Shown here: one piece after another, positions 2,178 to 55,267 of the stretch | Layout of the letters: each line of letters begins with the position of its first letter | Position numbering within the stretch: position 1 is the first letter of the stretch | From: a virus | Taxonomy: Duplodnaviria > Caudoviricetes | Length of the DNA: 55,952 bases | Virus record (IMG/VR): IMGVR_UViG_3300032117_000033 | Location: 1-55,952 of that record | Strand: one strand, 5' to 3' | The notes under the pieces: model-generated | What the model was told of the DNA's origin: nothing | Database searches by the model: none | The model's input: the letters and a program-made list of their open reading frames with translations, nothing else | Made by a program: the position numbers and the translations under genes

Positions 2178-2219
2178 GTGGGGGTGGGGCGATTCGTCGC
2201 TCTGCCCCCACACTTTTTT
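2178..2219 (+). terminator. Intrinsic terminator or attenuator between Ubl and E2
   Basis: 15-bp stem GTGGGGGTGGGGCGA-TTCG-TCGCTCTGCCCCCAC followed by ACTTTTTT. Confidence 0.7.
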
Positions 2220-2231
2220 AAGGACAGAATT

Positions 2232-2939
2232 ATGGCAACAACACAGTATGTATTCCAGCCCGACGGCAAGCTGTTCCGCGAGGACATTACCCGCCGGGAG
2301 ATTGGAATCACCCCCCAGATCGCCCGGGCGATGAGTGGGGACGTGTCGGCCCGCGCGAACGCGATCGCCCAGCATGAACGCTGGGGCCAGTTCAACGTCC
2401 AGGTCGAATCCACCGGCGACTGCTGGTGGACCGCCCTGCTTCCCCGCCTCACCATCAAGTGCCCCTGGCGCATGGATGGCGGGAAGTGGACGCCAAACCT
2501 CAACAATCCCGAAGACCCGATCCAGGCGCTGGATTGGATTCCCCCGGACGACATGCGGCTGGTGTTTCTCATGCCGGTCAAATGGAGCCCGGGCAACTGC
2601 ATCGCCGAGAAGGTGGGCCACACCTACCTCTTTGCGTTCGATAACCAAGGAGCCACCTGGCGCCTCCCGCTGGGCAACTTATACGACGAGTGTCGTATCT
2701 GCCTCGGACAGGAGCGGTTCGCCGCTGCCAGCCACATGCAATGTGTGGCGGCCGCTCTGGAACAGTTCGCCAACAGCCAGTGGAACGCGGACCTGTGGCG
2801 CACCCAGGCACAGACTAAAGCCCTGTTCTCCTTCCTGCCCAAGGACAGCGGCTTCGATCAGATCCCGCCCGAGAGACACTGGACATCCTACTGCTCCAAG
2901 GTCGGCAACGCGATCAGCGAGAAGGTGGTGCTCTTATGA
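2232..2939 (+). CDS. Prokaryotic E2 (UBC-like) conjugating enzyme, similar to Prok-E2 family D / PRTRC protein B
   Basis: LPLGNLYDECRICLG matches the UBC (H)PN...G.IC pattern, with candidate catalytic Cys at 2700-2702. Downstream FANSQWNADL. AAGGACAG precedes ATG 2232. Confidence 0.75.
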   Translation: MATTQYVFQPDGKLFREDITRREIGITPQIARAMSGDVSARANAIAQHERWGQFNVQVESTGDCWWTALLPRLTIKCPWRMDGGKWTPNLNNPEDPIQALDWIPPDDMRLVFLMPVKWSPGNCIAEKVGHTYLFAFDNQGATWRLPLGNLYDECRICLGQERFAAASHMQCVAAALEQFANSQWNADLWRTQAQTKALFSFLPKDSGFDQIPPERHWTSYCSKVGNAISEKVVLL

Positions 2940-3235
2940 CTATCTACGAGCTGCTCAATACCTGCCCGGTGCGTGTCTCCCTGGAGGAGAAGATGCTCCA
3001 TGCATTCAAGCAACTGTCGGAGCCAATCCACTGGGCGCTGCACACACGGGACGCGGTGGCGGTAGGGATGATCCACGATCCTAGCGTCGGCACCAAGCTG
3101 TTGACTACGGATCAGTACTCGCAGCTCATGCGCCTGCTCGACACGGCGGTCACCAAGCTGCAAATCGACATGGCCCTGTCGGAAGAACAGTTGGACCTGG
3201 CCAAGGCCATCATTGAAGAAAGCCGCCGACCATGA
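2936..3235 (+). CDS. Hypothetical helical protein within the Ubl operon
   Basis: Translationally coupled to both E2 and E1 by ATGA overlaps. Confidence 0.75.
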   Translation: MTIYELLNTCPVRVSLEEKMLHAFKQLSEPIHWALHTRDAVAVGMIHDPSVGTKLLTTDQYSQLMRLLDTAVTKLQIDMALSEEQLDLAKAIIEESRRP

Positions 3236-3981
3236 GAGTCTTCATCATTGGCGGAGGCGGAGGCGGTAGCTGGCTCCTGCCGTCCATGTGCATGTTAGTG
3301 GGCCGCAAGCACCTGATCATCGTGGATCGGGACAAGCTGACCCAGAAGAACCTCAATCGCCAGCTCTTCACCGAAGAGGACGTTGGCAAGAACAAGGCGG
3401 TGGCCCTGGCAGAACGGTATCACTGCGAGGCGCTGCCGATCTGGTACACGCTCGGGTGCATCGACCTGACCCGGGACGATTGGCTCATCTCCTGCGCGGA
3501 CAATCATCCGTGCCGGTTGGCGATCCTTCGCTCGGTCGATCAGTTCAAGTGCCGCGCGATCATCGCGGCCAACGAGAAGACCAGCTCCGAGGCCTACTTC
3601 TATCGCCGCGACTGGCGGGACACCCCGCTGGATCCGCGCTGTTACTATCCGGACATCGAGACCGATGATACGGATGATCCTTCACGCCCCGAGACCTGCA
3701 CCGGGGAAGCTCAGGTCGCCACACCGCAACTGGTGTCGGCGAATGTCATGGCCATCTCATTGGCCCAATGGCTCTATGTCTTTTGGGGCATGAAGCGCCC
3801 GGGCATGGGGCTCAATGTCGATGAGAGCAACTTCCCGTATCATTACCGGGCCAACATGACCATGTTGGAAACCTTTAGGATCAAAGATGCCAACAAATCC
3901 TTTGAATTGGTGGGAGAACCTGGAACCGAGCCTGAACCCACACCTGATGGCGCATCCGCCGCAGGGGCCGTTTACGCTTGA
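3232..3981 (+). CDS. ThiF/MoeB-family E1-like adenylyltransferase
   Basis: IIGGGGGGSW nucleotide loop, IVDRDKLTQKNLNRQLF..EDVGKNKA, CADNHPCR, and C-terminal PETCT..Q..QL..AN (candidate thioester Cys at 3697-3699). Confidence 0.9.
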   Translation: MRVFIIGGGGGGSWLLPSMCMLVGRKHLIIVDRDKLTQKNLNRQLFTEEDVGKNKAVALAERYHCEALPIWYTLGCIDLTRDDWLISCADNHPCRLAILRSVDQFKCRAIIAANEKTSSEAYFYRRDWRDTPLDPRCYYPDIETDDTDDPSRPETCTGEAQVATPQLVSANVMAISLAQWLYVFWGMKRPGMGLNVDESNFPYHYRANMTMLETFRIKDANKSFELVGEPGTEPEPTPDGASAAGAVYA

Positions 3982-4042
3982 TCCCTACACCCAGTTCATC
4001 AGTGAACGGGAGAGATTAAGACTGGAACAACAGATACAAAAT

Positions 4043-4876
4043 ATGAGCACACAAACAGCACCGATCGCGCCAGATCTGGAAGAAGCGATCAAGCAAGAGA
4101 CACTTCGGCAGTTAAATGCGGAAGAGGCCACTAAGGCCAAGCCGAAGGAAGACAAACCACTCAAATGCCCCAAGTGCGGGGCGTTTGCCGAGCGGGTCCT
4201 GGTCGCCAAAGACAATCGGCTTCCAGGACTTTTTTGCAATAAAGAGGGCTGCGGTTGGACCGCAACTCTCGATGTATTGCCGGTCCGCCTGCGGGAATGG
4301 ACCTACGTGATCCATCAGTCGATCCATGAACTGCTTCGACTGGCACCACTGAATCCGGTTGCCCGGACTCATGTTCACTCCAAGGTGGGGATTCCGATCC
4401 CCCCGGTATGCACCACGCTAGCCCAGATCCTGCAATGGATCGAGACCGTGGAGCTGAAGAAAGGGGTGTTGTCTAGTGACGAAATCCCTTTTAACCTACC
4501 GACGCTTCCTCGATGGGCGCCCACCAATGCCCTGTCGATCGAAGTGGGATACTCGTATCGAGAGTCTGGGAGAGCCAGTTACTCCTGCACACAGTATGGC
4601 TGCCGCAACTACGAACTAGGACGCGACGACATCGCCGAGATGGCGGAAGAGTGCGGCTCGTTATCCGAGTTGGAAACAGTGGTGAAACGGCGGTTCCGGG
4701 CTATGTGCGGTGAAAATCCTCCCAACACCGAGGCCTCTGATTACGACTACAGTGATGAAGAGGCCACGGACAGTGATGACCACGAGACAGAGATCCACGA
4801 GGAGACTCTGAGAACCAAGTTAGCCGAGTGGCTGCGCAACCATTTGCCAGCCGAGTATGACCGATTAAACACATAA
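4043..4876 (+). CDS. Zn-ribbon-containing protein with acidic C-terminus (Ubl operon)
   Basis: CPKC...CNKEGC motif. The start could be as far upstream as 3887. Confidence 0.7.
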   Translation: MSTQTAPIAPDLEEAIKQETLRQLNAEEATKAKPKEDKPLKCPKCGAFAERVLVAKDNRLPGLFCNKEGCGWTATLDVLPVRLREWTYVIHQSIHELLRLAPLNPVARTHVHSKVGIPIPPVCTTLAQILQWIETVELKKGVLSSDEIPFNLPTLPRWAPTNALSIEVGYSYRESGRASYSCTQYGCRNYELGRDDIAEMAEECGSLSELETVVKRRFRAMCGENPPNTEASDYDYSDEEATDSDDHETEIHEETLRTKLAEWLRNHLPAEYDRLNT

Positions 4877-4894
4877 CAGAAAGGACAGTAATAC

Positions 4895-6091
4895 ATGCAG
4901 ACCGTTAAAATGAAGGACGACACAATCAACCAGGTCCTGGAGTTTCCAGGCATTGTGTCGGTCAAGTTAAAACACAAGATCAGCTCCACCGAGCTGGACT
5001 ACGACTACGCGGGGCCCAAGATCCCCTACGAAGAGTGGCACAAAGTTCTGTCATTCTTCCGGTGGACCTACCAGGAGGCTCATAGCGAGAGCCAGGTGAG
5101 GGGATTCATCGATCCAACCACCAACAAGATCCTGTTCTGGGCCTTCCCGCAGGAAGCCGGGACCGGGATGACCACCAAGGAACTGGATGGAGACGAGTTC
5201 AACCAGCAGAGGGCCGCGCTGCCCAATGCCAATGAACTGATCTACTTCTTCACCATTCACCATCACTGCTCGGCGGGAGCGTTCCAGTCGGGCGGCGACA
5301 GCAACAATGAGGAGCGGCCTGGTGGCCGCGCCCATGAGACCGGCCAGGACGGGCTCCACATCACCGTGGGGCTCATGGACAAGGCCCGGCACGACATGCA
5401 TGCCCGGCTCTACCTGAAGGGGGTCAAGATGCAGCCCAGGTTCTCGGACTTCTGGGACATCTCCGACAGCCTGAAGGTCATGCTGCCCAATACGCTGCAT
5501 GACAACGTGGCCTACTACCAGATGACCGAGAAGGTGGAGTTGGAGTTCCCCCAGAAGTGGAAGGACAACTACATCAAGGTGGAGCGCAAGGTCACGACCT
5601 ACGTCACGCCCGACTATTACGGAGGGGGGTATTCTGGCTACACCAGTGGCAAAAGCCTCACGGAAAGAATCGAGGCGTCGGCGGCGGAAGTGGTGGAGAC
5701 GCTGATGGACAATCCGAAGTTCGACGTGCCCATCGAGATCCTCCAGCAGGTGCTGGATTTCTTGCAGGAGTCTCCCATTATCGATGAGATCCTGGATGAG
5801 GCCATGAAGGAGCGCTACGACGCCATCGACATCCGGTCGCTGGTGAAGAACATGGAAACGATCGCCGACGACTGGGTGGAGATCGAGGCCGAACGGGCCC
5901 TGGCCATCGAGAAAGGGGAAAAGGTTGACATAGCTGTCAAACGGGGCAAACGTAAGAAGAATGGCAAAGGCACCATCGTGGCCGGTAACGAATCCGATCA
6001 ACCGAAGTCGGTGGCGGATCAGCAGGCGCAGCAGGCTCGAGAGCCTGACAAGGAATCAAGCCCCCTTGGAGCCAATGCGGCTTGGGATTAG
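4895..6091 (+). CDS. JAB/MPN+ metallopeptidase (deubiquitinase-like; PRTRC protein A-like) with C-terminal extension
   Basis: N-terminal Glu (HSESQ), FPQE, TIHHHCSAGAFQSGGD (HxH-x7-S-x2-D) and GLHITVG. AAGGACAG upstream. Confidence 0.85.
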   Translation: MQTVKMKDDTINQVLEFPGIVSVKLKHKISSTELDYDYAGPKIPYEEWHKVLSFFRWTYQEAHSESQVRGFIDPTTNKILFWAFPQEAGTGMTTKELDGDEFNQQRAALPNANELIYFFTIHHHCSAGAFQSGGDSNNEERPGGRAHETGQDGLHITVGLMDKARHDMHARLYLKGVKMQPRFSDFWDISDSLKVMLPNTLHDNVAYYQMTEKVELEFPQKWKDNYIKVERKVTTYVTPDYYGGGYSGYTSGKSLTERIEASAAEVVETLMDNPKFDVPIEILQQVLDFLQESPIIDEILDEAMKERYDAIDIRSLVKNMETIADDWVEIEAERALAIEKGEKVDIAVKRGKRKKNGKGTIVAGNESDQPKSVADQQAQQAREPDKESSPLGANAAWD

Positions 6092-7083: not shown

Positions 7084-7174
7084 TCAACAGGCCGGGATGG
7101 CCAGCTAAACACAACCTGCTAGGCGCACGATCTGTCCCGTGCAACATCCCGGCCTATCCTTTGAAAGACAAACT

Positions 7175-8455
7175 ATGACTGAAGAAGAAGAAGCAGAACT
7201 GATTGAAGAACACGAGAACACGGCCATGCCGATCGCAGTTCGATCGCCAGAGCCGGAGAAGCCGCCCATGACAGCGGCTCAAGCGAAGGTCCAGGCCATT
7301 GCGGACCTTACTCACAGCGCCTACCAGAAGGCGTCCACGCTCCAGCTCACCAAGGAGGAGAGCGATGCGTTGCAGGCGGACTTCCCGGACGATGCGTTCT
7401 TCACGGGCGCGGCCGGGAAAGAGAACCTGATCTACATTGCCCACCCGCACTTGCGAGAGCGCCTGACCAAGGTGTTCGGAATGGGGGGATGGGCTTTGAT
7501 CACTCGGTCGCGGTGGGACGTTCCCTTCAAGACCGAGAAGGGTGTGGACGGGACCAACGTCTATGTCGAGGCCATGTTAGTGATCCGCGGTTGCTTCGTA
7601 GCCGAGGCAATCGGGGACATGGCTTACTACCCCAAGAACCAGCAGACCAACTACGGGGATGCGGTGGAGGGGGCGGAGAGCGCAGCCCTCAGGCGGTGCT
7701 GCAAGAAGTTCGGGATCGGACTCCAGGCCTGGAAGAAGGACTGGATCGAGGGATGGTGGCAGAGGCGCCGGGACCCCAAGCAGCCGATGGGCGCCACGCC
7801 AAGGGCCAAGCCCAAGGAAGCCGCACCAGCCCCCAAGCTGCCGACGGAGGCAACCAGGGCCTGGATGATCGCCCAGCTCAACATCGGTCCCGGACAACCG
7901 GCCAGGAAGCTGGCAACCGAGTACTTCGAGAAGATCTCGGCGCTGATCCCGGGGGAACAGGTGGAGGATCTGCCTCTCCAGTTCGTCCCGTTCAGCAAGC
8001 AGGAGCTGGAAGCCCTGGCATCCTGCCTGGCCAACTTTGAGGCTGGCGGGGATGCGGTGAGGGCCTTCGAGCCTCATTATGAGACAAAGGAGAGCAAGCC
8101 TGTCCAGAAACAGGACAAACCCATTGAGGTTCCTCGAGTGAAAGCCGAGGAATCCCAGTCGGGAGATGTGAACGAGTGGTTCATGGACATCGTGGTCCCG
8201 GTGCCTCGGAAGGGGCAGAAGCGGGACGAGTATATGAAGGATCCGGACACGATCCGATCCCTCTACGACGCGCGGCACGACGACGAAGACGCGCGTAAGC
8301 GTCTCTGGGGCTTCGTGAATCACTACGAGCCCAAGGGTTGGGAGAAGAAGGACGGCACCAAGATGCCGCCCGGTGACGCGGACATCAAGTTCCGGGAGGC
8401 GTTAGACGCCTTCAACGACTGGTTCGAGAAGGAGCACCCCGATGAGAGCTTGTAA
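7175..8455 (+). CDS. Rad52/Rad22-superfamily single-strand annealing protein, Mgm101-like
   Basis: YIAHPHLRERLTKVFGMGGW and AVEGAESAALRRCCKKFGIGLQAW match Rad52/Mgm101 motifs. Adjacent to an exonuclease. Confidence 0.8.
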   Translation: MTEEEEAELIEEHENTAMPIAVRSPEPEKPPMTAAQAKVQAIADLTHSAYQKASTLQLTKEESDALQADFPDDAFFTGAAGKENLIYIAHPHLRERLTKVFGMGGWALITRSRWDVPFKTEKGVDGTNVYVEAMLVIRGCFVAEAIGDMAYYPKNQQTNYGDAVEGAESAALRRCCKKFGIGLQAWKKDWIEGWWQRRRDPKQPMGATPRAKPKEAAPAPKLPTEATRAWMIAQLNIGPGQPARKLATEYFEKISALIPGEQVEDLPLQFVPFSKQELEALASCLANFEAGGDAVRAFEPHYETKESKPVQKQDKPIEVPRVKAEESQSGDVNEWFMDIVVPVPRKGQKRDEYMKDPDTIRSLYDARHDDEDARKRLWGFVNHYEPKGWEKKDGTKMPPGDADIKFREALDAFNDWFEKEHPDESL

Positions 8456-8714
8456 TGGCCCACCCTTGCCCCCAGGACATGGTGAATGCCATCAAGGAGG
8501 GGGCTTAACCCCAGCCCAGGTAAAACGGATCAATCAGTGGGGTCAAACGCGTCGTAGGGCTGTAGAACGCTCCTGGCGAGGGGTCTGTAGCCCCAGGACG
8601 GCGATCAAGCTCCAATGCTTGGATTGCTGCGGGGAGGACGAGCGTGCTATAACCGAGTGCGGTGATCGGTGCTGTCCTCTATGGAGGTTCAGGCCGTTTC
8701 AGCGCCAGCAATAG
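8442..8714 (+). CDS. Small Cys-rich phage protein
   Basis: AIKLQCLDCCG...ECGDRCCPLWRFRP motif. Confidence 0.65.
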   Translation: MRACNGPPLPPGHGECHQGGGLTPAQVKRINQWGQTRRRAVERSWRGVCSPRTAIKLQCLDCCGEDERAITECGDRCCPLWRFRPFQRQQ

Positions 8715-8792: not shown

Positions 8793-9569
8793 ATGACAGC
8801 AGTAAATGTAAGAAGATCGGAAAGTAGCCACTGGTACACCCAGTCTGGGGAACCGTGCTACGAGTTGAAGAAGAAGTCAGGGCCGGGAATGAAGCGGCCA
8901 ACACTGGCGGATGCCAGAGAGTTGGGTCTACTTCCAAGTGTCACAACTTTACTCAAGGTGCTGGCAAAACCAGCCCTACAGGACTGGTTAATCGCCCAGG
9001 CGGTAAGGGCGGTGATGGACACGCCCAGGCTCGAGGGAGAGACAAACGACCAGTTCGTGGAGAGGGTGCTGGTCACCGAGCGCATCCAGGACAGGGAGGC
9101 CGCTGGAGCGGCAGACTTGGGCAGCTCAATTCACGATGCCCTGGAAGAGGCAGTGGGTGGAAGGCCTTATGATGCCAAGTGGCGGCCGTATGTCTTCCCG
9201 GTGCTGGATGCAATTCAAGGGATGGGCAAGGTGGTCAAGTCAGAGTTCATCCTGGTTGGCAATGGCTACGCCGGAAGGTCGGACATCCTGATCGAGAACG
9301 AGAGGGAGCTGATTGTTGGGGACTTCAAAACTACCCGGTCGGTCCCACCGAAGGAGCCGTGGATCGAGGCAAGGCTACAGACCGCTGCCTATGCCAAGTG
9401 CCTGGGGAACGTGGCTGACAAGCATATCCTGACAGCGGTAATCTACATCAGCACCGTCAACATCGGTGAAGTGAAAGTGTTTATGAACGAGAACTGGCCG
9501 GAGATCTACGAGAAGGGATTCCTGCCGATTCTCAACTTTTGGAGATGGTCCAACTCATATTCCCCATGA
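8793..9569 (+). CDS. PD-(D/E)XK exonuclease (Cas4/lambda-exo-like recombination nuclease)
   Basis: PSVTTLL, GSSIHDALE, YAGRSD...DFKT and LQTAAYA motifs. Confidence 0.85.
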   Translation: MTAVNVRRSESSHWYTQSGEPCYELKKKSGPGMKRPTLADARELGLLPSVTTLLKVLAKPALQDWLIAQAVRAVMDTPRLEGETNDQFVERVLVTERIQDREAAGAADLGSSIHDALEEAVGGRPYDAKWRPYVFPVLDAIQGMGKVVKSEFILVGNGYAGRSDILIENERELIVGDFKTTRSVPPKEPWIEARLQTAAYAKCLGNVADKHILTAVIYISTVNIGEVKVFMNENWPEIYEKGFLPILNFWRWSNSYSP

Positions 9570-9655
9570 ACCACCCCATCGCCCTATCCATCCTGATCGG
9601 AACCCTGATCCTGGTGCTGTGGATAGCCATAGACTACTGGAGGAGGGGGGATTAA
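9566..9655 (+). CDS. Small single-pass membrane peptide (MNHPIALSILIGTLILVLWIAIDYWRRGD)
   Basis: ATGA-coupled; one hydrophobic helix. Confidence 0.5.
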   Translation: MNHPIALSILIGTLILVLWIAIDYWRRGD

Positions 9656-9661
9656 GTTAGC

Positions 9662-9723
9662 TTGACATAACCAAAGGTATCTTGACATAACCCCTTGACA
9701 CCCCTTTAAGGGAGGGGCAGGAT
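9662..9723 (+). promoter_or_regulatory. Triple TTGACA promoter/operator cluster
   Basis: TTGACA at 9662, 9682 and 9695; CTTGACATAACC occurs twice. The third copy has CAGGAT 17 nt downstream. Confidence 0.55.
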
Positions 9724-9729
9724 AGGACA

Positions 9730-10340
9730 AGATGAATAAGCCAACCATGTCAGATGCAATTTCCGGTGCAAGCCGGAATCTGAACCTTGGCTGGTTCATC
9801 TCAACCCCATCGGTCGAAAGACCGGTGGGGTGTTTCTCTGAACGGCCAGAGACCATACGGTAGCCGAAACCTGCGCGGCCCAGCTTTGGCTGGTGCTGCG
9901 GTTAGGGGTGAGCGAGGACGGAAGACTTCCCGCCCAACGAGATGGAAAACGATTGTCCTTTGAATGCTTTGACCGGAACCACGGTTAAGCGAAGGCGCGA
10001 ACACTGCCAGCCTGACGGGGTGCGTGGCGCGTCAACCAGGGCCAGCTACCGGCGAGAACGTCTCCGGTACGGACATAGCCCCAGTCGTCCGGCAACACCG
10101 GAACTCGAAACCAGTGGACTGGCACGGCCAAGGCACTCAGAGGACAAAGGTTTTCCCTTTCCTATCAGAAGGCGGTTGCATGCCCTCGGACCGTATCAAA
10201 ATCGAGGCCGAATCTTCAGTGGTTAGGGGACCCGGAAGCCACCGGGAGTCCGCAGAAAAGGCCACTATAAATAAGCGCGGACGGTTACCCTCCTGTCTTA
10301 CTTCCTCGGCTGGCTGCCAAGGGGGGTAAGGGGGGTTTTG
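9730..10340 (+). ncRNA. Candidate ~600-nt structured non-coding RNA or replication-origin transcript
   Basis: No convincing ORF. Dense series of hairpins (for example 9731-9800 and the GAAA-capped 9804-9831), ending in G6-TAA-G6-T4. Confidence 0.5.
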
Positions 10341-10348
10341 GCAGAGGT

Positions 10349-10621
10349 ATGGAGATGATTATGGTATTGAACTACGAACTGATTACTGCGTTAGGTACAC
10401 TCAACTCCTATCAGCTTAGGTTGTTGGGCATTGGCTGGCCACCAAGAAGGGGATGGATCTACCATCTTGTGGGCCAGGAGATCACAGACGATATGTTCCG
10501 AATTCTAGTGGAGCCAAAGGGTCCCAGGAAGAAGGCGGAGCGAATACAGATACTGAAACGGCATGGTATTTCACCATCCAAACTATTCCAGAGCAAAATT
10601 AAATACGAAAGGACAGTATGA
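10349..10621 (+). CDS. Hypothetical protein
   Basis: 90-aa ORF with GAGG upstream; coupled to the next gene. Confidence 0.65.
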   Translation: MEMIMVLNYELITALGTLNSYQLRLLGIGWPPRRGWIYHLVGQEITDDMFRILVEPKGPRKKAERIQILKRHGISPSKLFQSKIKYERTV

Positions 10622-10917
10622 ACATGCAGGAGCAGATCAACCTCTTGTGTAAGAGGATGGCAGGTCTGGAGTCAGAGATCAGGATTCTTAAACAATCCCC
10701 CCCTTCCCTCGAAAAGGAGAATGCCGGGGGATCTAAGGACGCCTGGCTTATCTCCAAGAAGATGGAGGCGCTGGAGAGGGTGGCTCAGGGGATCAAGGAT
10801 CGGTTCTCCAGCGAGGTGGCCTTCGGGGTTCAGTGGGACTCGCCGGAGAAGAAGAAGGAATACCTTGGGGTCAAACGACAGATCAAACAACTCAACGGGC
10901 AGTTGGCAAGCCTATGA
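10618..10917 (+). CDS. Hypothetical coiled-coil protein
   Basis: AAGGACAG at 10609-10616 before the ATG. Confidence 0.75.
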   Translation: MNMQEQINLLCKRMAGLESEIRILKQSPPSLEKENAGGSKDAWLISKKMEALERVAQGIKDRFSSEVAFGVQWDSPEKKKEYLGVKRQIKQLNGQLASL

Positions 10918-11231
10918 AGAAACAACGCAAGCGGTTTGAAACCGCCCAACAGATCAATGACGCCATCGACCAGTACAAGTCCAAGGCCCGGAAGATGATC
11001 GATCACGCGGTCAACCTTGAGTACCTGGCCGGGCAACTGGCCATGGCCGGTCCGCTGGAGGCCGAGAACGTCCTGTACAAACGGGCCGTCGCGCGTAAGC
11101 TGCGCGTGTCGGCGTTCAACATCGAGAAGAACAAACTGCCCAAACTCAAGGAGAAGCTCTCGGAGTTTATGACTCCGCAGCTTCCCGGTTTGGATGATGG
11201 CGATCCCAGCATCCCAGCCAAACTGACATGA
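10914..11231 (+). CDS. Hypothetical protein (MKKQRKRFETAQQ...)
   Basis: ATGA-coupled start at 10914 within ORF 10833..11231. Confidence 0.7.
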   Translation: MKKQRKRFETAQQINDAIDQYKSKARKMIDHAVNLEYLAGQLAMAGPLEAENVLYKRAVARKLRVSAFNIEKNKLPKLKEKLSEFMTPQLPGLDDGDPSIPAKLT

Positions 11232-11554
11232 TTATGAAAGATCAGGAAATAAACATCGCCATCGCGGAGGCGTGCGGGTGGAAATGGAATTACGAAACGG
11301 CAGGGTGGCATGGGCCGGATGGCAGGTTTGAAACCAAATTCGACAGGAAACTTCCCGACTACTGCCACGACCTCAACGCGATGCACGAGGCGGAAACCGT
11401 TTTATATCGGGACCAGCCACATTCATGGCAGGAGTACACGGACCAACTCCGGATTGTGTGTGAATATCCAATCCATCGCGCCACCGCCCACCAGCGTGCC
11501 GTGGCTTTCCTTCGGTGCAAGGGACTGTGGAAGGAGGAATCACATGGCCTGTAG
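11228..11554 (+). CDS. Conserved-type phage protein (possible ABA-sandwich domain)
   Basis: INIAIAEACGW...LPDYCHDLNAMHEAE...ATAHQRAVAFL pattern. Confidence 0.6.
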   Translation: MIMKDQEINIAIAEACGWKWNYETAGWHGPDGRFETKFDRKLPDYCHDLNAMHEAETVLYRDQPHSWQEYTDQLRIVCEYPIHRATAHQRAVAFLRCKGLWKEESHGL

Positions 11555-11750
11555 GGATCTTTTTAATAGCGCCTACGTACGCCGGGCCAGCCTGGATGCG
11601 CCGGTCAGGATCCACCCCAGATGCCACCCAAAGGCAGGGGTTGACGTATTCGTTGACACCCAGAATCACTCGGTCATTCTGGTGTGCAGCAGATGCGATA
11701 GAACTATTGCGTGTGTTAAAGCTGCTCCATTTAGTAAGAAGATTGAATAA
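11544..11750 (+). CDS. Small Zn-ribbon-like protein
   Basis: AGGAGG before ATG 11544; CH...CSRC. Confidence 0.6.
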   Translation: MACRDLFNSAYVRRASLDAPVRIHPRCHPKAGVDVFVDTQNHSVILVCSRCDRTIACVKAAPFSKKIE

Positions 11751-11807
11751 TTATGGGAACAAAGAGAAACTGCTGGTGGCAAATCACACACGGAATGTCA
11801 CACACTC

Positions 11808-12263
11808 ATGGAACAGAGTATGATAAAGCTAAATGACATCAAGAGCCCAGCTCTGCGCAGGCGGATCGAGGATGCCCTGCACAACGCGGAGATGATCAAG
11901 CACGAGTTGCAGAACGTGGTGACGGTCAAGACTCCCGTGAAGAAGCGCATACGGCAGCGTTCCAAGCCAGCTCTTAACAAGCTGGAACAGGAGGCTCTGG
12001 ATACTCTGCACAGCCGATTCCCGTTCTCCACCTTCCGGCCTCACTGCCTGAACCTGGAGATCGCAAATGGAACCTGGTTGTGCCCGGACATCGTTGAGTT
12101 TGCTGCCGAGCCGCCCTTGAGGATCTACGAGGTAAAAGGAAAACAAGCTTGGGAGGACTCCATCATCAAGCTGAAGGTGGCGGCAAGAACCTGGAAGGAG
12201 TTCCACTGGTGGCTGATGTGGAAGGACGATCTGGCCTGGCACTCCCAGAGAGTGCTGCCTTAG
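11808..12263 (+). CDS. PD-(D/E)XK nuclease (DUF1064 / resolvase-like)
   Basis: NKLE...CPDIV...IYEVKG...IKLKVAA. The start may be 11820. Confidence 0.7.
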   Translation: MEQSMIKLNDIKSPALRRRIEDALHNAEMIKHELQNVVTVKTPVKKRIRQRSKPALNKLEQEALDTLHSRFPFSTFRPHCLNLEIANGTWLCPDIVEFAAEPPLRIYEVKGKQAWEDSIIKLKVAARTWKEFHWWLMWKDDLAWHSQRVLP

Positions 12264-15200
12264 GGCTCAGTAGGAGCCAAGCGCACGCCCGTGCCAGCCG
12301 ACAGACCGAACACGGCCAGGGAGATTGCCAGCTTCCTGGCTGTGGCGGTATCCATCCCAATCTGCCGCCACGTATCCAGCGCTTCTTCCAGCGGGATCGG
12401 CGAGATCTGCTGGCCCACCCATTCACCCATACCCCACGGTTCCACTCCCCTTCTTCGCAAGTAGGTCGGCACCTGGTCGCTGGACCACGGCAGCGGTCGG
12501 CGCGAGAAGTCCTGCTGCGTCGCCACATCGTAGGCAAAGCTGGCGAAGGGCGAGAACTTCCCCCGCGCATACCGGCCGATCGTGGTGTCCATCAGGTTCT
12601 GCCTGCCCTGGAGCTTCTCCATCTGGGACAGGTCGCCTTGCCCCGAGTGGAACGCATTGGCAAAGAGCTTCACGATCCCGATTAACGGATTCACCACCCC
12701 CACCTTGAACCCCGGAACCTTGAACCACATGAAGTCAGGCTTCCTGGGGTCGGTCAGGTTCACATCTTCATCGCTTCCAATCGCCTTCAAAAACCCCTGG
12801 TTCATCGCCAGCATCGAGTAATACATCCCCACCATCGCCGCCTTCTGGCGGATCTCACTCTTGGCCCACAGGATCTGCTCCGGACTGGCGTTCTTGCCCG
12901 GCCTGATGATGTCCAGCGCCTTGACCAGGTCGGTGGCCATCGCCCACCTAGACGCTTCCAGATTGGGAGCGAACATGGCCCAGTTGAGCGCCTCATGGAA
13001 GTGGGTCTTCACGATCCCGGTGGCATGGTTGACGCTGTCGGCGATGTACTTGCCCATGATCTTCCCTGATTCACCGGTCTTCATGTGCTCCGGCAGGGTG
13101 TCCCACCACTGCTCCGCGCGGTTATGGCGCAGGAGCTTGAGCACGTCGAACCCTCTCCCGCCAATCAGCCCTCCAAGCTTCTTCTTCTCGAACCACTTCT
13201 TCAGCATCTCGATCTGGTAGTCATCGGTGATCTGCCTTGGATCGCACTTCAGGTCGCAGATGTTCACCCAGAAGTCAAACCGAGGCTTGTTTTGCAAGTC
13301 CATCATCACAGCGGCATGGTAGTCCCTCCCGGATAGCCCCTTGGCGCCGAAGGTCATCTTGTACATGTCCAGCCATACCGGGAAGTAGGTCTTCCAGGCG
13401 TAGGGGTTGAACGCCATGTTCCCAGCGTGGGTCACTAGCGGCACCATGCCGTGGCCGAAGATCTTGTCCATGAAGAAGTACCGAGGGATCCTGCGGATGA
13501 ATTGCAGCCAGCCGGGATAGCGGCGGTTCTTGAGCCAGTTCTTGGCATCCTGAACCACCCGGTTCTCAATGCGCATCTTCTCCAGGGCATCGGCGGTCAG
13601 GTGCTTGAGTGTCCGATTAGTGGACAGTGCCGCCAGCAGCCTGTCCATCGGCAATCCAGTCTCCTGGGAAGCCCGGAACCACAGCTCCAGAGGGTCCTTG
13701 ATCACCTTGTCCTTGGGGTCCAGGAACACCTGCTTGACCACGTTGAACACATGGTAGGCCTCGATTGGCCGGGGGTGATACCCCTTGGGGTCAGCCTTGA
13801 CCGCCCGGGCGATGGCGGCCTTGCTCTCTTCGATCGTTGGACGCTTGCGGGTAAGGATCTCCCTGGCCTCTTTGGTGGACTCGCCTGAGGCGATGAAGTT
13901 GTCCAGGAAAATATCTCGGATTTCCTGGGAGATGGCCCTGATCTTTCCCAGGTAGTTGTCGTACTTGTTCCCTATCGCCTTGACCTTGCGCATTTCCTCT
14001 AGCCAGCGCTCATCGGTCAGGTCGCCCTTGTTGGACAGGTCCATCATTATCTCGTAGCCGACATTGGCCAGAGCGTCCTCGGTCTTATGGTCCAGCGGCG
14101 GCAGATCCTTGGACTGCTTGGCCATCATGGGCATACCCTCAATCACACTCAGATAGTCCTCAGCCGCTTCACGGTTTTCCCTGGCCTGCCTCAGCGCTTC
14201 GTTGATGGCAGCCGCGTTGCCCTTATCGGTCGCGGTGGGTGCTGCGGCCTTGCTCAGGGCGCTCACCGCCTTCTCTCGCTCCTTCCTGGCCACCTTGACA
14301 CCGTCCACCATGTCCCGGATGTGCTGATCGTCCTCGACGGTTATATCCCCTTCGTCTTCTTCCTCCACCTGCCTGCGGATGGAAGTGTAGTTCCCCATGT
14401 CATCCAGATCTCCCTGGAACACCTTGCCGGTTTCCGACCAGGTGGTCTTGAAGGTGTTGCTGTACCGGGTTCCCCATGCCTTGGATTGCTCCTGAGCCAT
14501 CTTGGTCTGGTCGGACCCAAATCCGGTGTCGATCGCAATGTTGTCGGCGTTCTCGTCCAGCAACTGCCAGGCGTGACGGCCGATCGCGGCAGCCTCGAGT
14601 GGGTTCACCACCACCCCTTCCTCGGCCATGTTCATCATCCTCAGGGCATCGTCCCACCCCTTCCAGGACTTCCTTCCCATAACGGCCAGCTCCTGATCCC
14701 CCATGCTCTTGCGTATCTCAGTGATCGCCAACGCACGGTGACCCTGTTCCAGCTCTCCCCTGGCCCGGTTGGACGGTCCATATCCGCCCATGCCCAGGCG
14801 CATGGCCGGACCGGTTTCCTCTCTCGGAGGGTGCTGGTAGCCCGGTGGAGCTTCTCTGGGTGGCCTGCCAAGGGTTTCCGGACCCCTATTGGCCAACTGG
14901 GCGTAGATCTGGGTTCCCCACCTGGGCGGAGCCACACCGGCAGCATGCTCCTTCACGTACCTCTGTGACCCGGGATCAAGAAGTTGTGGAGGAATGCTCT
15001 CAGCTCCACCTGGAGGTGGCGTAGGCCCTAGCCTGCGGTAGGCCGGGACTCCGCCTCCGCGCTGTTCGGCGGTGGGCGGGATGCCCTTGCCGCGCAGCTC
15101 CACCATCCGTGACTCGGCCTCCGGGCGGGTGATCCGGGGTGGGAACTTGGGTCCCTTGCGTCCGGGGTATTCGCTGTAGATCCCCCACTGCTTGAGCCAG

Positions 15201-18200
15201 TCCTCTACTGGTTTGTGGGTGAGGAGGTATCGCTCGCGCTCTCCGACGACTCCGGGGGAGGGCCCTTGAGCGGCTCGCTTTTTCGCCAGCGCAAGTTCCC
15301 TAGCAAGTCGTCCAGTGTTTTCGCCATAGACTTCCAGTGCTCGTGTTCGGAAGTTGGCCGACTCGAGAGGAACCCCTTGCTCGGTTGGGCCTTGGACGCC
15401 GGTGTGTGCGGATTCTTTGAGTTCATAGACATGGTTCAGCGCCTCCATGAGCGCTTCTTGGTTCAGGCCTTCCAGGTAAGCCTTCTGTTCTTTCTGGGGA
15501 AGCGATCGTATGTACTTCCTGTTCTGCTTCTTCAACTGGTTTTGCCACCAGGTAACGATCTTGTCCATCCCGGTGACAAAGCAATAGTCCTCCCCGCGCA
15601 GGCCCTTGGGCTTGCCGGTGTACCAGCCGATGTGGGTTCGCCGGAACTGTACCTGCTTCAAGACGTTCAGGAGATCCAATGGGCTGGTAATCGCCTTCTG
15701 GATCCTGCGGCCGTATTCCTTCCAGGTGGTGACCCCGCGCTTCTTGCTGGCGGCCTGCTTGATGATCGGGATCTGGTGAGTGCCCTTCTCGTAGTTCGAG
15801 ATGGCCTGGGAGATCGCCTCGGCTTCCTCAGTGGTCAGAGGACCCCTCACCAGCCTCTGGGGATCGGTCTGATACAGCCCCAGGACGCCCATGCCCGGCC
15901 CCTGCAAGTGGCCGGAGCCCTCAGCCAGAGTCTCGGGTGACCCGGACTTCATCTCGATGGCTCGTTCTTCCGGCGCGGCCTGTTCGTCCTCAACCAGCCC
16001 GGCTTCGCTGGGTCTCATCCCTTCCGCTTCTGTGGTAGCTGCCTTGGCTTCCGCACCCTCAACCTTAGCTTCACCCTCTTCCCCAGCCTCCTTAGGCAAC
16101 TCTCCCGTTACTTCCTCTTCCTTGGTCGGACCCTCCAGCAGCTTCTCCAGTGCGCTGATAGCCGCTTTGGCATCGCGCTTCTTCTGTCCCATTTCCCAAA
16201 CCGAATCCGCCAGCACTTCCTTGATGGTCGCGTTGTCGCCGATCTCCCCCATGAACGCTTCTTCGGTCTTCCAGCGCTGGTGAAACTTGTTCACCGGGGA
16301 TTCCAGCAGGAACATCTTGGTGATGTCCCATGTTCCCAGGACGCTCTTGATCGGTATGTGCTGCTGGGTCTTGTCCCCCGGTAGGAACCGAGGATTGTAG
16401 ACGTAGACTTCCTTCTTGGTCGGGTGCAGGTAGAGGGAAACCGCGTCCATCTGCTTGGTGATCCGGTTCTTCAGCAGCACCACACCGCGAGTCAGCTTGG
16501 ACGGGGCCACGCCTTTGACTCCGGTTCCCTGCCAGATCTGGCCTCTAAGGAACGTGATGTCAGCCGCCTGTTCCGGGGTCAGGGTCCAGACCGTGCGGAT
16601 ATCATCAAGCGACAGCTTGGGCCTGGCCGGGTCCAGGTCTGGACGCCTCGAGGGCTTGATCAGCCTCTCACTCAGGTAGTCGATCGCCCGGCGCCTGCGG
16701 TCCATCGCCTTGTCAAGGCTCTGGCGATAGGCCTTCTGGGCCTCCTTGAGGCTCATGGTGCGGCCGCGCTTGGCCTCCAGGAATGCAAGCTTGCCTTCCT
16801 TGCTGACTACCTTCTGCTTGCCTCCCCGGTGCAGCTCCAGGAACTCGTTGGCGTCAGCCAGCTCGCTGTGGATCTGCTGGCGCAGCATCTTGATCGCCTC
16901 GCCGGGAGTGACTCCCTTGGCGGCTGCGTAGCGATCCAGGCGGAACAGGGCTTCGTCCTTCTCCCGGAACAGGATCTCAGCCGCCTTGGCGTCTGCCTCC
17001 TGCTCCGTGTAGGGTTGGCCCGTGGTAGGGTTATCGCCCTGGACGTTCAGGTCGCGGAACTTCTGGAACTCCTTGGGGTCCTGGATCAGGTATCCCCGGT
17101 CCAGCGGACGCAGGATCTCCGTGGCGTCTACATCGCCCATGAACCCCCGGAACCGGCCGTGCTCCAGGTCCTCCCCGTGTGCCTTGAGCAGGTCCATGAT
17201 CTGGTCCCGGGAGGCGTTCTGGAGGTAATCGTTGACCGCTTCGGACCAGGCCTGCCGGACGTAGTCCTCAGGGATGGTGGGGTCCTGGCGGTGGATGGCT
17301 CTCCAGTAGCTTGCGTAGTCTCCGAAGTCGTAGTAGATCCGCTTGGCCAGGTTCTGAGGAACCGTCAGGCCCATTGAGTTCTTGGGAAGCTTCTCGGTTT
17401 TGATCTGCGACGGCGCGGCTTCTCCCTTGGCCTGCCGTGGGGTGGCTGGCCTTCCCAGGTGCCTGAGCATCCCGGTGTAGAGGAAGTTCCAGGTGGTGGC
17501 TGGTGGCGGAGGAAGGTCGATAACCTTTCCTCCAGTCGTGGCTTCGAACTCCGCTATGAGCTGCTTGCGGATCCGCTCAACCTCCTGGTCCTGCGGGGTG
17601 ACATTGGTGGCGACGATGTTGGCCGCCTCGGCGTTGCGCTTCTCGGCGATGCGCTCTGAGAACTTCTCGAGGTAGGCGTCCCAGGTTTCTGGCGGCTTGT
17701 CCTGGAGCCAGTCCGCGAAGTTGTGGGCGACGGTCAGGGCCTCTTCAGGCGTGTAGGCGTCCCCGGCGCTGTAGGCAATCGCCTTGATCCGGCGCTCGGT
17801 TTCCTCGCCTCTCTCTCCGCCCAGGGGCATGGCCGGGCCGGTCTCACCCGCACGACGGGCCTTGGCCTGGGCAATCGCACGCTCTCTTGACTCTCTGGTC
17901 AACTCGCGGTGTTCCTGCGCTTCCTCCGCCGTGGGAGGACGATCCGCCCACAGCTTTCTTAGCTCTGCTAATCGAGGATTCTGGACTTCAGCAGGAGTTG
18001 TGCTTATAATTGGAGTAGCCGCAGGTGCTGGAGCGGTTGGAGCCGCCCCAGCTTTAGCTGCACCAACCGGAGCCTGCCCAGGTTGAGCCCCCACAGGTTG
18101 CGCTGCTGGGGGCGCTTTCGCTTTCTTTGCTGGTCGGATGTTGTTTACGTCTCCGACAAATTCTCGTCTGCCTCCCTTGAGTTCAACTTCAGCGAATATC

Positions 18201-25191: not shown

Positions 25192-25238
25192 AACTGGGAG
25201 CTGCGCGGCGTGAACAGATCATGCTCGAACTTCCCACA

Positions 25239-25272
25239 TTGCGGCCACAATCGCAATACCTTATCTTGCAGC
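25239..25272 (+). promoter_or_regulatory. Sigma70-like leaderless promoter for terL, overlapping a divergent promoter
   Basis: TTGCGG-17-TATCTT-5-ATG (25273). The minus strand has TTGCGA-17-GAAGTT. Confidence 0.5.
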
Positions 25273-52322: not shown

Positions 52323-52371
52323 GGAGAAACATTCGCTTGACAACTCTGTGAATGCAAGTAGAATTTACGCG
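52323..52371. promoter_or_regulatory. Overlapping divergent promoters at the late/early switch
   Basis: + strand: TTGACA (52337)-16-TAGAAT-7-ATG (52372). - strand: TTGCAT-17-GAATGT-6-ATG (52322). Confidence 0.65.
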
Positions 52372-54178: not shown

Positions 54179-54447
54179 CCACCGCTGTTCCTGGCTCCAC
54201 GGAGGGGCAAAGGTGCTCCAGCCTCCGTGTAGGTGTGTAAGAGCAAAACACCTGACCAGGTGACGTGTGCCCAGAGGTTCCCTGTCGTGGCATCCCGGGC
54301 AATCCAAAAGATTCCTTACCACCCTTGGTAGAACATGGGACCAAGCGAGAGGGAGGGAGGCTCTTACGATCTGACCGTGGGTGGTATGTCCCCCCCCCAG
54401 GGTGTAAGGGCAGGGGACGGTCCCTTGCCCATGGTAAATTCCTTCCA

Positions 54448-55095: not shown

Positions 55096-55100
55096 AGCAA

Positions 55101-55131
55101 GAGTAGGGGCGGGTGCCCCTGCTCTTTTTTG
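55101..55131 (+). terminator. Intrinsic terminator
   Basis: GAGTAGGGGC-GGGT-GCCCCTGCTC followed by a T-run. Confidence 0.8.
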
Positions 55132-55267
55132 TGCCTTTTTGGGCACATTCGGGCTGGACTGGACAGGCCAGCCGTGAGCCTTGAATCACGGCTCTTTACC
55201 TCTGCTCACGCTGAAGCGTGGGCGGAGTTAAGGACAGATAACCAAAGGAGATACAAAGGACAGAACT

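What the first reader, a model, noticed from the sequence alone, without database searches (positions are those of the whole stretch)
9656..10345. ~600-nt structured non-coding element ending in G6-TAA-G6: candidate large ncRNA or RNA-primed origin
Seen: after three TTGACA boxes comes about 600 nt without a credible ORF but packed with stems: GATGAA..AGCCAA/TTGGCT..TTCATC enclosing TTCCGG/CCGGAA, ACCCCATCGGTC-GAAA-GACCGGTGGGGT, TCTCTG/CAGAGA, CCAGC/GCTGG, TACCGG/CCGGTA, TCCGG/CCGGA, AAAGG/CCTTT and AGTGG/CCACT. It ends in GGGGGG-TAA-GGGGGG-TTTT (10321-10339). It lies where a replication initiator gene usually follows recombination genes, and I recognise no initiator, primase, helicase or polymerase in the genome. 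Established: ColE1 RNA II (about 555 nt) and mitochondrial CSB II use a transcript with a G-tract to form an R-loop primer. Inference: a protein-free, RNA-primed phage origin, or else a new phage ncRNA class.
Basis: partly seen in the sequence, partly recalled or inferred. Interest (0 to 1): 0.72.

Follow-up and report, generated by a model that had tools for sequence, protein, structure and literature searches.

The report
Phage non-coding leader with origin-type G-tract
A 690-base gene-free stretch of a lake phage holds promoter-like boxes, one unusually stable hairpin with a terminator, and a G-rich end signal that other phages keep inside their replication genes and that matches a mitochondrial replication-priming block, so it may mark where this phage starts copying its DNA.

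Summary
It is not uniformly "packed with stems". Only the 5' ~130 nt (hairpin 9730-9801 plus intrinsic terminator 9804-9839) folds exceptionally well against this genome's own background, and only on the + strand. The remaining ~500 nt folds no better than ordinary sequence of this genome. I found no homologue of the element as a whole, so covariation could not be tested.

The new result concerns the 3' end. The tandem AAGGGGGGT x2 is an exact 17-mer found in at least 114 IMG/VR stretches. It was single-copy in each of the 5 phage genomes I checked. It mostly sits in replication modules: antisense in replisome-organizer genes beside iteron-like repeats, or just upstream of helicase-primase genes in E. 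coli prophages. A third class lies in promoter-proximal 5' leaders. Window 10321-10338 is the exact reverse complement of the gecko mitochondrial CSB-2 block.

Best reading (about 0.35): a transcribed control module whose G-tract end is an origin-type signal fed by terminator-gated transcription. Main rival (about 0.3): an expression leader only. The "600-nt ncRNA class" reading is unsupported.

The parts
9566..9655 (+). Flanking tiny membrane ORF (29 aa from ATG 9566). Its start overlaps the exonuclease stop as ATGA.
   Evidence: The TTG-start version matches PHROG 13382 'transmembrane protein', E 2.9e-4.
9644..9653 (+). Left copy of a 10-nt direct repeat (AGGGGGGATT) that borders the element.
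   Evidence: Repeat D8. G6 is rare in the genome.
9654..9704 (+). Two 19-nt direct repeats spaced 20 nt apart, each holding TTGACA, followed by a third TTGACA flanked by C4 runs. These are promoter -35 boxes, operators or iterons.
   Evidence: Repeat D3. CTTGACATAACC occurs exactly only here. Three of the 23 TTGACA in the genome lie within 39 nt.
9682..9717 (+). Candidate promoter: TTGACA, 17 nt, TTTAAG, then a G-rich discriminator (GGAGGGG).
   Evidence: Read. The layout matches L182 (TTGACA, 18 nt, TTTAAG, then the G-tract motif) and is like the other contigs of the promoter-28 class (31 occurrences), whose -10 hexamers differ. It falls below the threshold of the consensus scan.
9730..9801 (+). 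72-nt hairpin with a GCAA apical loop. ATG 9732 sits in its basal stem.
   Evidence: Pair probabilities 0.92-0.99. Fold statistics.
9804..9839 (+). Intrinsic terminator: 12-bp stem, GAAA loop, GTTTCTCT tail.
   Evidence: pair probability 0.99.
9732..9863 (+). Possible 43-codon leader ORF that runs through the terminator (uncertain).
   Evidence: AGGA lies 4 nt before the ATG. The ORF was never called as a gene. Codon score -0.12.
9859..10289 (+). Long irregular hairpin ('rod') with core helix 9939-9975 / 10125-10161. Its fold stability is ordinary for this genome.
   Evidence: (I1). Background rank 13 of 111.
10172..10209 (.). 38-nt core matched at 90-95% by one 151-nt contig of another lake run, with unlike flanks on both sides.
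   Evidence: Not found in 249 stored loci or in the collection scans.
10288..10339 (+). A pyrimidine-rich arm pairs with the G-tracts and is followed by T4. This is a weak terminator-like end of the element.
   Evidence: Its stability is not exceptional (z 0.44 and -0.60).
10319..10338 (+). Tandem AAGGGGGGT x2 plus TT. Positions 10321-10338 are the reverse complement of the gecko CSB-2 block. This is the widely recurring 17-20-mer.
10329..10338 (+). Right copy of the 10-nt direct repeat (AGGGGGGTTT).
10349..10621 (+). Downstream gene with possible starts at 10349, 10355 and 10361. No family match.
   Evidence: All three start versions are in the protein collection, and the 10355 version is the cluster representative.

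Best explanation
The gap is a transcribed, non-coding control module with three parts.

(1) Promoter-like boxes sit in direct repeats at 9654-9704.

(2) The first ~110-125 nt of transcript form a very stable hairpin and an intrinsic terminator. These stop most transcripts, either as an attenuator or as a short RNA. A 43-codon leader ORF runs through the terminator, so a closely following ribosome could let RNA polymerase read on.

(3) Transcripts that read on cross ~480 nt of ordinary leader and reach AAGGGGGGT x2 followed by T4 on the non-template strand.

I take this G-tract to be an origin-type DNA signal, as in other phages. There the same 17-mer lies in the replisome-organizer gene next to iterons, or just upstream of helicase-primase genes. 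At the G-tract the G-rich RNA and the displaced strand would stall transcription and hold an R-loop that opens or primes replication. This is the mechanism shown for mitochondrial CSB II and, with a G-run, recalled for ColE1 RNA II.

Shown here: the anatomy, the non-coding status, the fold statistics, and the distribution of the motif. Inferred: transcription, termination, the R-loop, and origin function in this phage.
For: The region is non-coding.

The 5' module is the most stable local fold in the genome and is + strand specific. The terminator is found by the scan.

Distribution of the motif:
- The exact 20-mer occurs in 8 IMG/VR contigs and the 17-mer in at least 114 stretches.
- 122 occurrences in 121 loci were classed. 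39 lie in one enterobacterial prophage family, 31 lie downstream of a promoter, 25 lie antisense inside ORFs of at least 120 aa, and 27 are other.
- In the enterobacterial family, phage Fostie carries the motif in a 427-nt gap 287 nt upstream of the DNA helicase and DNA primase genes, with the G-rich strand as sense strand.
- Of the 25 antisense occurrences, 18 have tandem repeats within 80 nt.
- Of 21 such ORFs scanned, 12 match DUF6291 (6), DUF1376 (4) or Phage_rep_org_N (2).
- The next gene downstream is a DnaB helicase, a G39P or IstB-type loader, or a Toprim primase in 9 of 10 scanned.
- This is the gene order of SPP1, whose oriL lies inside gene 38 (PMC6316719, passage read).

The constraint is on the DNA. 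The motif is read in three frames (TPLTPL, PPLPPL, NPPYPP) and keeps a TTA codon in a 68% GC contig.

It was single-copy in 5 of 5 phage genomes checked and in the window.

Window 10321-10338 is the reverse complement of CSB-2 as printed for geckos, 18 of 18 bases. The function of CSB II is taken from abstracts only (PMC3488243 and PMC4176368).
Against: The window has no replication gene around the motif and none recognisable anywhere (best E 0.31).

There are no tandem repeats next to the motif.

There is no AT-rich stretch: the lowest GC in 60-nt windows is 0.42. DnaA-like boxes are at chance level, 7 seen against 7.3 expected.

The promoter boxes lack a good -10 by the scan and lie 620 nt from the motif, with a strong terminator in between.

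In 31 of 122 occurrences the motif is a promoter-proximal 5' leader, 5-23 nt before a start codon. In the window it is 13 nt before ATG 10349. AAGGGGGG is listed as a ribosome-binding site in phage JG068 (PMC3765740, passage read).

In replisome-organizer genes the G-rich strand is the template strand, the opposite of the window.

The 20-mer is also multi-copy in two metagenome-assembled genomes and lies in frame inside an amidase gene, which points to a mobile or structural unit.

GC skew follows gene direction and says nothing about an origin.
Confidence: 0.35

Rival explanations
1. An expression leader only. An internal promoter cluster drives the last early genes (10349-12263). The hairpin and terminator form an attenuator, or release a small RNA. 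The G-tract is a strong double Shine-Dalgarno or translation enhancer for the next gene. There is no role in replication.
For: The motif lies 13, 19 and 25 nt upstream of the three candidate ATGs of the next gene, in sense orientation.

31 of 122 occurrences elsewhere sit between a -35 box at -27 to -29 and, in the members translated, a TerS-like HTH gene that starts 5-23 nt downstream. The motif stays exact there while the protein falls to 36% identity.

AAGGGGGG is listed as an RBS in phage JG068.

The 43-codon ORF crossing the terminator resembles ribosome-coupled attenuators such as pyrBI (recalled).

The terminator is found by the scan.
Against: This reading does not explain why the same 17-mer lies antisense inside replisome-organizer genes next to iterons, or 287 nt from the helicase start in the enterobacterial family.

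It does not explain ~480 nt of untranslated spacer.

A spacing of 13 nt to the first ATG is long for a Shine-Dalgarno sequence.
Confidence: 0.3
2. An inserted selfish or moron-like non-coding module. A ~685-nt unit with its own promoter and terminators landed between two translationally coupled genes. It may do little for the phage.
For: 10-nt direct repeats (9 of 10 identical) border the element and contain G6, which is rare in the genome.

Removing 9644-10328 puts the tiny ORF in frame to TGA 10356, which overlaps ATG 10355 as ATGA. This is the same coupling as at the exonuclease / tiny-ORF junction. The 10355 start is the representative form in the protein collection.

A 13-nt inverted repeat joins the third TTGACA box to the right end (I4).

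The related C6-loop-G6-TAA-G6 unit is multi-copy in two metagenome-assembled genomes and sits in frame in an amidase gene.

The exonuclease relatives have no such gap.
Against: There is a single copy in the genome. No second copy of the element exists in any collection searched.

The inverted repeat is placed asymmetrically, 37 nt inside the left border.

No empty-site variant appeared among four lake runs (no joints).

An insertion origin does not exclude either function above.
Confidence: 0.15
3. One large (~600 nt) structured non-coding RNA of a new class.
For: The whole-element fold has z -5.3 on + against 20 shuffles. Long-range helices have high pair probability. A 38-nt core is conserved in another lake contig.
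Against: The 3' 500 nt is ordinary against the genome background. The - strand scores as well or better. A strong terminator lies 100 nt into the RNA. There is no Rfam match, GOLLD and ROOL included. No homologue exists, so there is no covariation evidence.
Confidence: 0.08
4. A missed or decayed protein gene.
For: ORFs of 94 and 101 aa exist. The codon score has limited power in this phage.
Against: Searches are all negative.
Confidence: 0.03

Closest known systems
Mitochondrial conserved sequence block II (CSB-2) downstream of the light-strand promoter
   Same: The sequence is the same. Window 10321-10338 is the reverse complement of the gecko CSB-2 block, 18 of 18 bases. The frog version differs only in run length. 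The G-rich strand is non-template for the neighbouring genes' direction of transcription. A T/U run follows. Promoter-like boxes lie upstream.
   Different: This is a bacterial virus with no T7-type RNA polymerase recognised. The promoter-to-motif distance is ~620 nt and a terminator lies between. Priming and termination are untested. The motif is low in complexity, so identity may be convergence.
Phage origins embedded in initiator genes (SPP1 oriL in gene 38; lambda ori in gene O, recalled)
   Same: In other phages the same 17-mer lies in the inter-domain linker of organizer genes, next to tandem repeats and upstream of loader, helicase or primase genes.
   Different: In the window the motif is intergenic, with no initiator gene, no adjacent iterons and no AT-rich element.
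ColE1 RNA II / RNA I primer system; T4 oriF/oriG and the T7 primary origin (recalled)
   Same: A promoter lies several hundred nt upstream of the site. The 5' end forms stable stem-loops. A G-run is involved in a persistent RNA-DNA hybrid.
   Different: There is no sequence or Rfam similarity. No antisense promoter was found. There is an internal terminator. Dependence on Pol I or RNase H is unknown.
Promoter-proximal terminated leaders (lambda PR'-tR' 6S RNA, pyrBI-type attenuators, HK022 put; all recalled)
   Same: A promoter, then a ~110-nt structured RNA ending in a terminator, then a long untranslated stretch before the next genes. A leader ORF crosses the terminator.
   Different: No antiterminator gene or qut/nut/put-like sequence was identified. 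The downstream genes are small early genes, not a late operon.
Large phage-associated RNAs GOLLD and ROOL
   Same: Size range, phage setting and lake origin.
   Different: No match even at E<=10 with permissive filters. No tRNA neighbours. Only the 5' part is exceptionally structured.

Membership tests
CSB II-type transcription-primed origin | Two G-runs separated by 1-3 nt on the non-template strand, followed by a T run | tested here: met
   Window 10321-10339. Identical to the printed CSB-2 block.
CSB II-type transcription-primed origin | A promoter upstream that transcribes the G-rich strand | tested here: inconclusive
   There are three -35 boxes, and box 2 has TTTAAG at 17 nt. None passes the consensus scan. 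No RNA data are available.
CSB II-type transcription-primed origin | RNA 3' ends and DNA synthesis starts at the motif | not testable with these tools
   Needs end mapping in infected cells.
ColE1-type RNA II origin | Antisense RNA I gene opposite the 5' stem-loops | tested here: not met
   No promoter-like site on the - strand in 9400-10700. No RNAI or other Rfam match.
ColE1-type RNA II origin | Dependence on RNase H and DNA polymerase I | not testable with these tools
   Experimental.
Iteron-type phage origin (lambda / SPP1 kind) | Three or more iterons next to an AT-rich unwinding element | tested here: not met
   There are only 2 full and 1 partial direct repeats, at 9654-9704. Lowest GC is 0.42. 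No tandem repeats lie near the motif.
Iteron-type phage origin (lambda / SPP1 kind) | Location inside or beside the initiator gene | tested here: not met
   No homologue of 9 motif-associated replication proteins anywhere in the window. 40 ORFs scanned have no replication family.
Recurring phage 17-mer AAGGGGGGTAAGGGGGG (defined here) | Exact 17-mer, single copy per genome | tested here: met
   Window 10319-10335, unique in the window. Single copy in 5 of 5 other genomes.
Rfam large RNAs (GOLLD, ROOL, group I/II introns, RNase P, tmRNA and others) | Covariance-model match | tested here: not met
   0 matches at gathering score in the window. The best of 3 weak matches has E 3.1. No tmRNA or tRNA.
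Intrinsic terminator | GC-rich hairpin followed by a T-rich tail | tested here: met
   9804-9831 plus GTTTCTCT. Pair probability 0.99.
MITE-like or inserted mobile element | Target-site duplication, terminal inverted repeats, several copies | tested here: inconclusive
   A 10-nt direct repeat with 9 of 10 identical is present, and excision restores an ATGA gene junction. The inverted repeat is asymmetric. No other copy was found anywhere.

The most novel reading that the evidence does not exclude
AAGGGGGGTAAGGGGGG is an undescribed, widely shared cis-element of phage replication origins. It would work like mitochondrial CSB II, by G-quadruplex or R-loop formation that stalls transcription and makes or stabilises a primer. 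In this lake phage it is uncoupled from any initiator gene and is fed by a terminator-gated 600-nt leader. That would make an initiator-free, RNA-primed origin. It would give a direct sequence-level link between phage and mitochondrial replication priming.
Probability: 0.2. Interest if true: 0.85.

Novelty: new variant of a known kind. Interest (0 to 1): 0.62.

Why it matters
If the G-tract is an origin signal, three things follow.
1. Many phage origins could be located from sequence alone.
2. Phages with no recognisable initiator would have a candidate way to start replication.
3. The block that primes mitochondrial DNA replication would have an exact counterpart in phages. The mitochondrial replication proteins are thought to descend from phage enzymes (recalled).

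The motif occurs in prophages of 67 of 5426 complete E. coli genomes, so the idea can be tested directly in a laboratory strain.

If the motif is only a leader or ribosome-binding signal, the window is an ordinary regulatory gap. The recurrence of an exact 17-mer in three unrelated settings would still be unexplained.

Tried and rejected
Homologue searches for the element, all negative:
- blastn against 50,697 phage records.
- nhmmer, blastn and tblastn against 88 loci that encode relatives of the neighbouring exonuclease. These relatives are only 29-40% identical and mostly AT-rich. The 22-27-nt blastn hits to the TTGACA repeat fell inside a coding region of those phages and were dismissed as chance.
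- Whole records of the 5 nearest relatives.
- Exact-pattern scans with the terminator hairpin and with pieces of the 38-nt core. The 3 genome hits were a conserved protein gene, so chance.

Close relatives of the phage were sought without success through the annealase, ORF 10349, the exonuclease in genomes and the glycosyltransferase. The host is unknown.

Sequencing runs: 20 lake or freshwater DNA runs from 17 studies hold the stretch, and no RNA holder is listed. Contigs of 4 runs were identical to the window, with no variants and no joints, so no population covariation and no empty site could be seen.

A protein-coding reading was rejected. A decayed replication gene on the - strand was rejected.

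DnaA boxes are at chance level. GC skew is uninformative.

My idea that the motif lies near chromosome starts in complete genomes was dropped. Locus coordinates there are storage pieces, not contig positions.

ORF-free stretches in AT-rich exonuclease relatives gave no Rfam match.

Supplements of papers were not consulted.

The enrichment of the 17-mer therefore rests on a rough expectation, not on a control.

Full report
SETTING

The window is a complete 55,952-bp IMG/VR virus record (CheckV estimate 100%). Its DNA is held by 20 lake or freshwater runs from 17 studies.

The element lies in the + strand early block. Upstream are an Mgm101/Rad52-type annealase (7139-8455) and a PD-(D/E)XK exonuclease (8793-9569). 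A tiny membrane ORF follows, and its ATG overlaps the exonuclease stop as ATGA. Downstream are small genes up to 12263. These converge on a 2497-aa gene on the other strand.

Forty ORFs were scanned with Pfam, 20 of them also with PHROGs. Few matched anything and none matched a replication family.

THE OBSERVATION

Seven of its eight stems appear in the minimum-free-energy fold.

The region is non-coding by the following tests:
- Codon log-odds is at most 0.01 in all frames. This score has limited power.
- No Pfam or PHROG match.
- 0 hits among 1.84 billion representative proteins for the 101-aa ORF, and none for the 94-aa ORF.
- None of the five internal ORFs was ever called as a gene, while both neighbours were.

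Rfam gives nothing at gathering score in the whole window. It gives only three chance-level matches (E at least 3.1) in a permissive scan of 9400-10600. There is no tRNA or tmRNA.

IS THE STRUCTURE MORE THAN CHANCE?

Against shuffles the whole 646 nt looks strongly structured on both strands: z -5.3 on + and -7.5 on -, with 20 shuffles each. Shuffles are a lenient null here, so I used the phage itself as background.

- Of 557 windows of 300 nt, the + strand windows at 9601 and 9701 rank 1 and 3 after GC correction. The same windows on the - strand rank 28 and 34.
- That signal comes from two adjacent features. One is a 72-nt hairpin (9730-9801, GCAA loop). The other is a 12-bp GAAA-loop hairpin followed by GTTTCTCT (9804-9839), which the terminator scan also finds.
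- As a 128-nt RNA the two fold at -59.0 kcal/mol, z -5.99, with 0 of 200 shuffles as good.
- The remaining 500 nt (9841-10340) ranks 13 of 111 on + and 8 of 111 on -.
- Its predicted long hairpin (9859-10289; z -3.06 against shuffles) is therefore not exceptional for this genome.

"Packed with stems" is true of the first ~130 nt only.

HOMOLOGUES OF THE ELEMENT

None was found.
- The phage has no close relative in the collections I could reach. The best exonuclease relatives are 29-40% identical. A 64% match covers only 43 residues at a contig end.
- None of these relatives has a similar sequence.
- The four relatives inspected (L002-L005) have no comparable gap right after the exonuclease gene.
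- Four lake runs gave contigs identical to the window.
- One 151-nt contig shares only 10172-10209 at 90-95% identity, with unlike flanks. I could not find it again anywhere.

THE G-TRACT

G6 is rare in this genome: 6 seen against about 37 expected. Three of the six border the element. The right end is a perfect tandem AAGGGGGGT x2.

Scanning IMG/VR with the exact 20-mer gave 8 contigs of 46-68% GC with unrelated flanks.

I classed 122 occurrences in 121 stored loci.

(a) 39 belong to one enterobacterial prophage family.
- In Escherichia phage Fostie the motif lies at locus position 2766-2782 in a 427-nt gap.
- The gap sits between a small ORF and the annotated DNA helicase and DNA primase genes. 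The G-rich strand is the sense strand.
- The same gap occurs in 67 of 5426 complete E. coli genomes. No feature is annotated under it in 6 of the 8 rows listed.

(b) 25 lie antisense inside ORFs of at least 120 aa.
- 18 of these have a 5-8-mer repeated three or more times within 80 nt.
- Of 21 such ORFs scanned, 6 match DUF6291, 4 DUF1376, 2 Phage_rep_org_N, 1 also Phg_2220_C, and 1 a methyltransferase. Three further ORFs of this class and one spurious ORF were not scanned.
- Of 18 organizer-like ORFs examined (16 viral, 2 from genome contigs), 13 had a gene of at least 150 aa directly downstream. I scanned 10 of those 13, leaving out L170, L175 and L118.
- 9 of the 10 are replication genes: DnaB helicase (3), G39P-type loader (2), IstB/DnaC-type loader (2) and Toprim primase (2).
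- This is the SPP1 arrangement, where oriL lies within gene 38 ahead of the loader and helicase genes (PMC6316719, passage read).
- The motif is read in three frames (TPLTPL, PPLPPL, NPPYPP) and keeps a TTA codon in a 68% GC contig. The constraint is therefore on the DNA, not the protein.

(c) 31 have TTGAC[ATG] 27-29 nt upstream.
- In those examined, an ORF of about 125 aa starts 5-23 nt downstream.
- The ten I translated are TerS-like HTH proteins.
- Here the first G-run is the promoter discriminator. The second sits where a Shine-Dalgarno sequence would.

(d) 27 are unclassed. 14 of the 22 that are not inside an ORF also have nearby repeats.

The motif is single-copy in 5 of 5 phage genomes checked.

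In genome contigs the 20-mer gave 34 loci.
- Many come from one AT-rich "Rickettsiales" metagenome-assembled genome and one Parcubacteria genome.
- There the motif usually forms part of a C6-loop-G6-TAA-G6 hairpin unit.
- One copy lies in frame inside an amidase gene.

LITERATURE

A full-text search for the 15-mer in either orientation returned only two vertebrate mitogenome papers.
- One prints the gecko CSB-2 block. Window 10321-10338 is its exact reverse complement, 18 of 18 bases (PMC6295329, passage read).
- The other prints a frog CSB-2 with longer runs (PMC4395372, passage read).
- No phage paper in the library holds the string.
- From abstracts only, CSB II stops transcription through an RNA or hybrid G-quadruplex and yields the replication primer (PMC3488243 and PMC4176368).
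- AAGGGGGG is listed as a ribosome-binding site in phage JG068 (PMC3765740, passage read).

WHAT THIS MEANS FOR THE WINDOW

Beyond the 17-20-mer, the element shares nothing with any motif-bearing locus. The window holds no homologue of the associated replication proteins. It has no iterons near the motif and no AT-rich stretch.

The G-rich strand is the sense strand, as in family (a) and as in the mitochondrial arrangement. The motif lies 13 nt before ATG 10349, which resembles class (c). However, there is no -35 box at the class (c) position.

At the left end, box 2 (TTGACA, 17 nt, TTTAAG, then GGAGGGG) copies the promoter layout seen in L182 of class (c).

I therefore read the gap as a transcribed control module: promoter boxes, an attenuator or short RNA, a long leader, and an origin-type G-tract. 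I put origin function at about 0.35 and a purely expression-related role at about 0.3.

A 43-codon ORF with AGGA 4 nt before its ATG starts in the base of the hairpin and runs through the terminator. It would allow ribosome-coupled read-through. This is an inference only.

INSERTION

The element is bordered by 10-nt direct repeats (AGGGGGGATT and AGGGGGGTTT). Removing 9644-10328 puts the tiny ORF in frame to a TGA that overlaps ATG 10355 as ATGA. This is the coupling seen one gene upstream. The 10355 start is the representative form in the protein collection.

This suggests the module arrived as a unit between two coupled genes. It does not decide the module's function.

LIMITS
- There are no RNA data, no host and no homologue.

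Noticed in passing
window 2178-6091: The early genes look like a ubiquitin-like conjugation set. ORF 2178-2939 has a short ubiquitin-like match (residues 108-131, E 2e-6 to polyubiquitin chains). ORF 3232-3981 has a ThiF/E1 N-terminal match (E 1.4e-18). ORF 4895-6091 resembles clusters that carry Prok-JAB in 11-46% of members.
   Followed up: partly
window 25210-27966: The large terminase gene appears to carry an intein. Hint and intein-splicing matches, all below the Pfam cut-offs, fall at residues 228-530, with a terminase match after them.
   Followed up: no
window 12260-19753 (- strand): A 2497-aa ORF with no Pfam match. Its end converges on the early block.
   Followed up: no
window 9566-9588 versus 9789-9799 and 9816-9836: The start region of the tiny membrane ORF is complementary to two arms of the hairpin/terminator module: 11 nt at 91% and 21 nt at 76% (I6 and I2). 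The 9-mer ACCCCATCG occurs in both (D9). This raises the possibility of RNA-RNA control of the small hydrophobic peptide.
   Followed up: no
window 10172-10209: A 38-nt stretch is matched at 90-95% by a 151-nt contig of another lake run with unrelated flanks. It is far too long to be chance and is unexplained.
   Followed up: partly
L102-L133 (genome contigs): A ~30-nt unit, C6-TG(A/T)-CAAG6-TAAG6TT, is multi-copy in one AT-rich 'Rickettsiales' metagenome-assembled genome, often near contig ends. It is also multi-copy in one Parcubacteria genome. In L134 the unit lies in frame inside an amidase gene. It may be a small mobile palindromic element, or organelle-type GC clusters.
   Followed up: partly
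L249 2642-3068 (Escherichia phage Fostie) and 67 E. coli genomes: A 427-nt unannotated gap upstream of the helicase and primase genes holds a ~60-nt run of G-tracts around the 17-mer. This is a tractable place to test the motif.
   Followed up: partly
window 52337-52364 and 55099-55230: A near-consensus sigma-70 promoter (TTGACA, 16 nt, TAGAAT; 11 of 12) lies at the head of the + strand block. A cluster of terminator hairpins follows ORF 54265-55095 and is the second most stable + strand fold in the genome.
   Followed up: no
window 8442-8714: A Cys-rich 90-aa ORF (CxxC-type motifs) has a negative codon score (-0.30). It may still be a real gene, which shows the limit of the codon test.
   Followed up: no
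L080, L027, L032, L028 and others: AT-rich phages with a related exonuclease have ORF-free stretches of 300-580 nt about 1 kb downstream of it. None has an Rfam match.
   Followed up: partly
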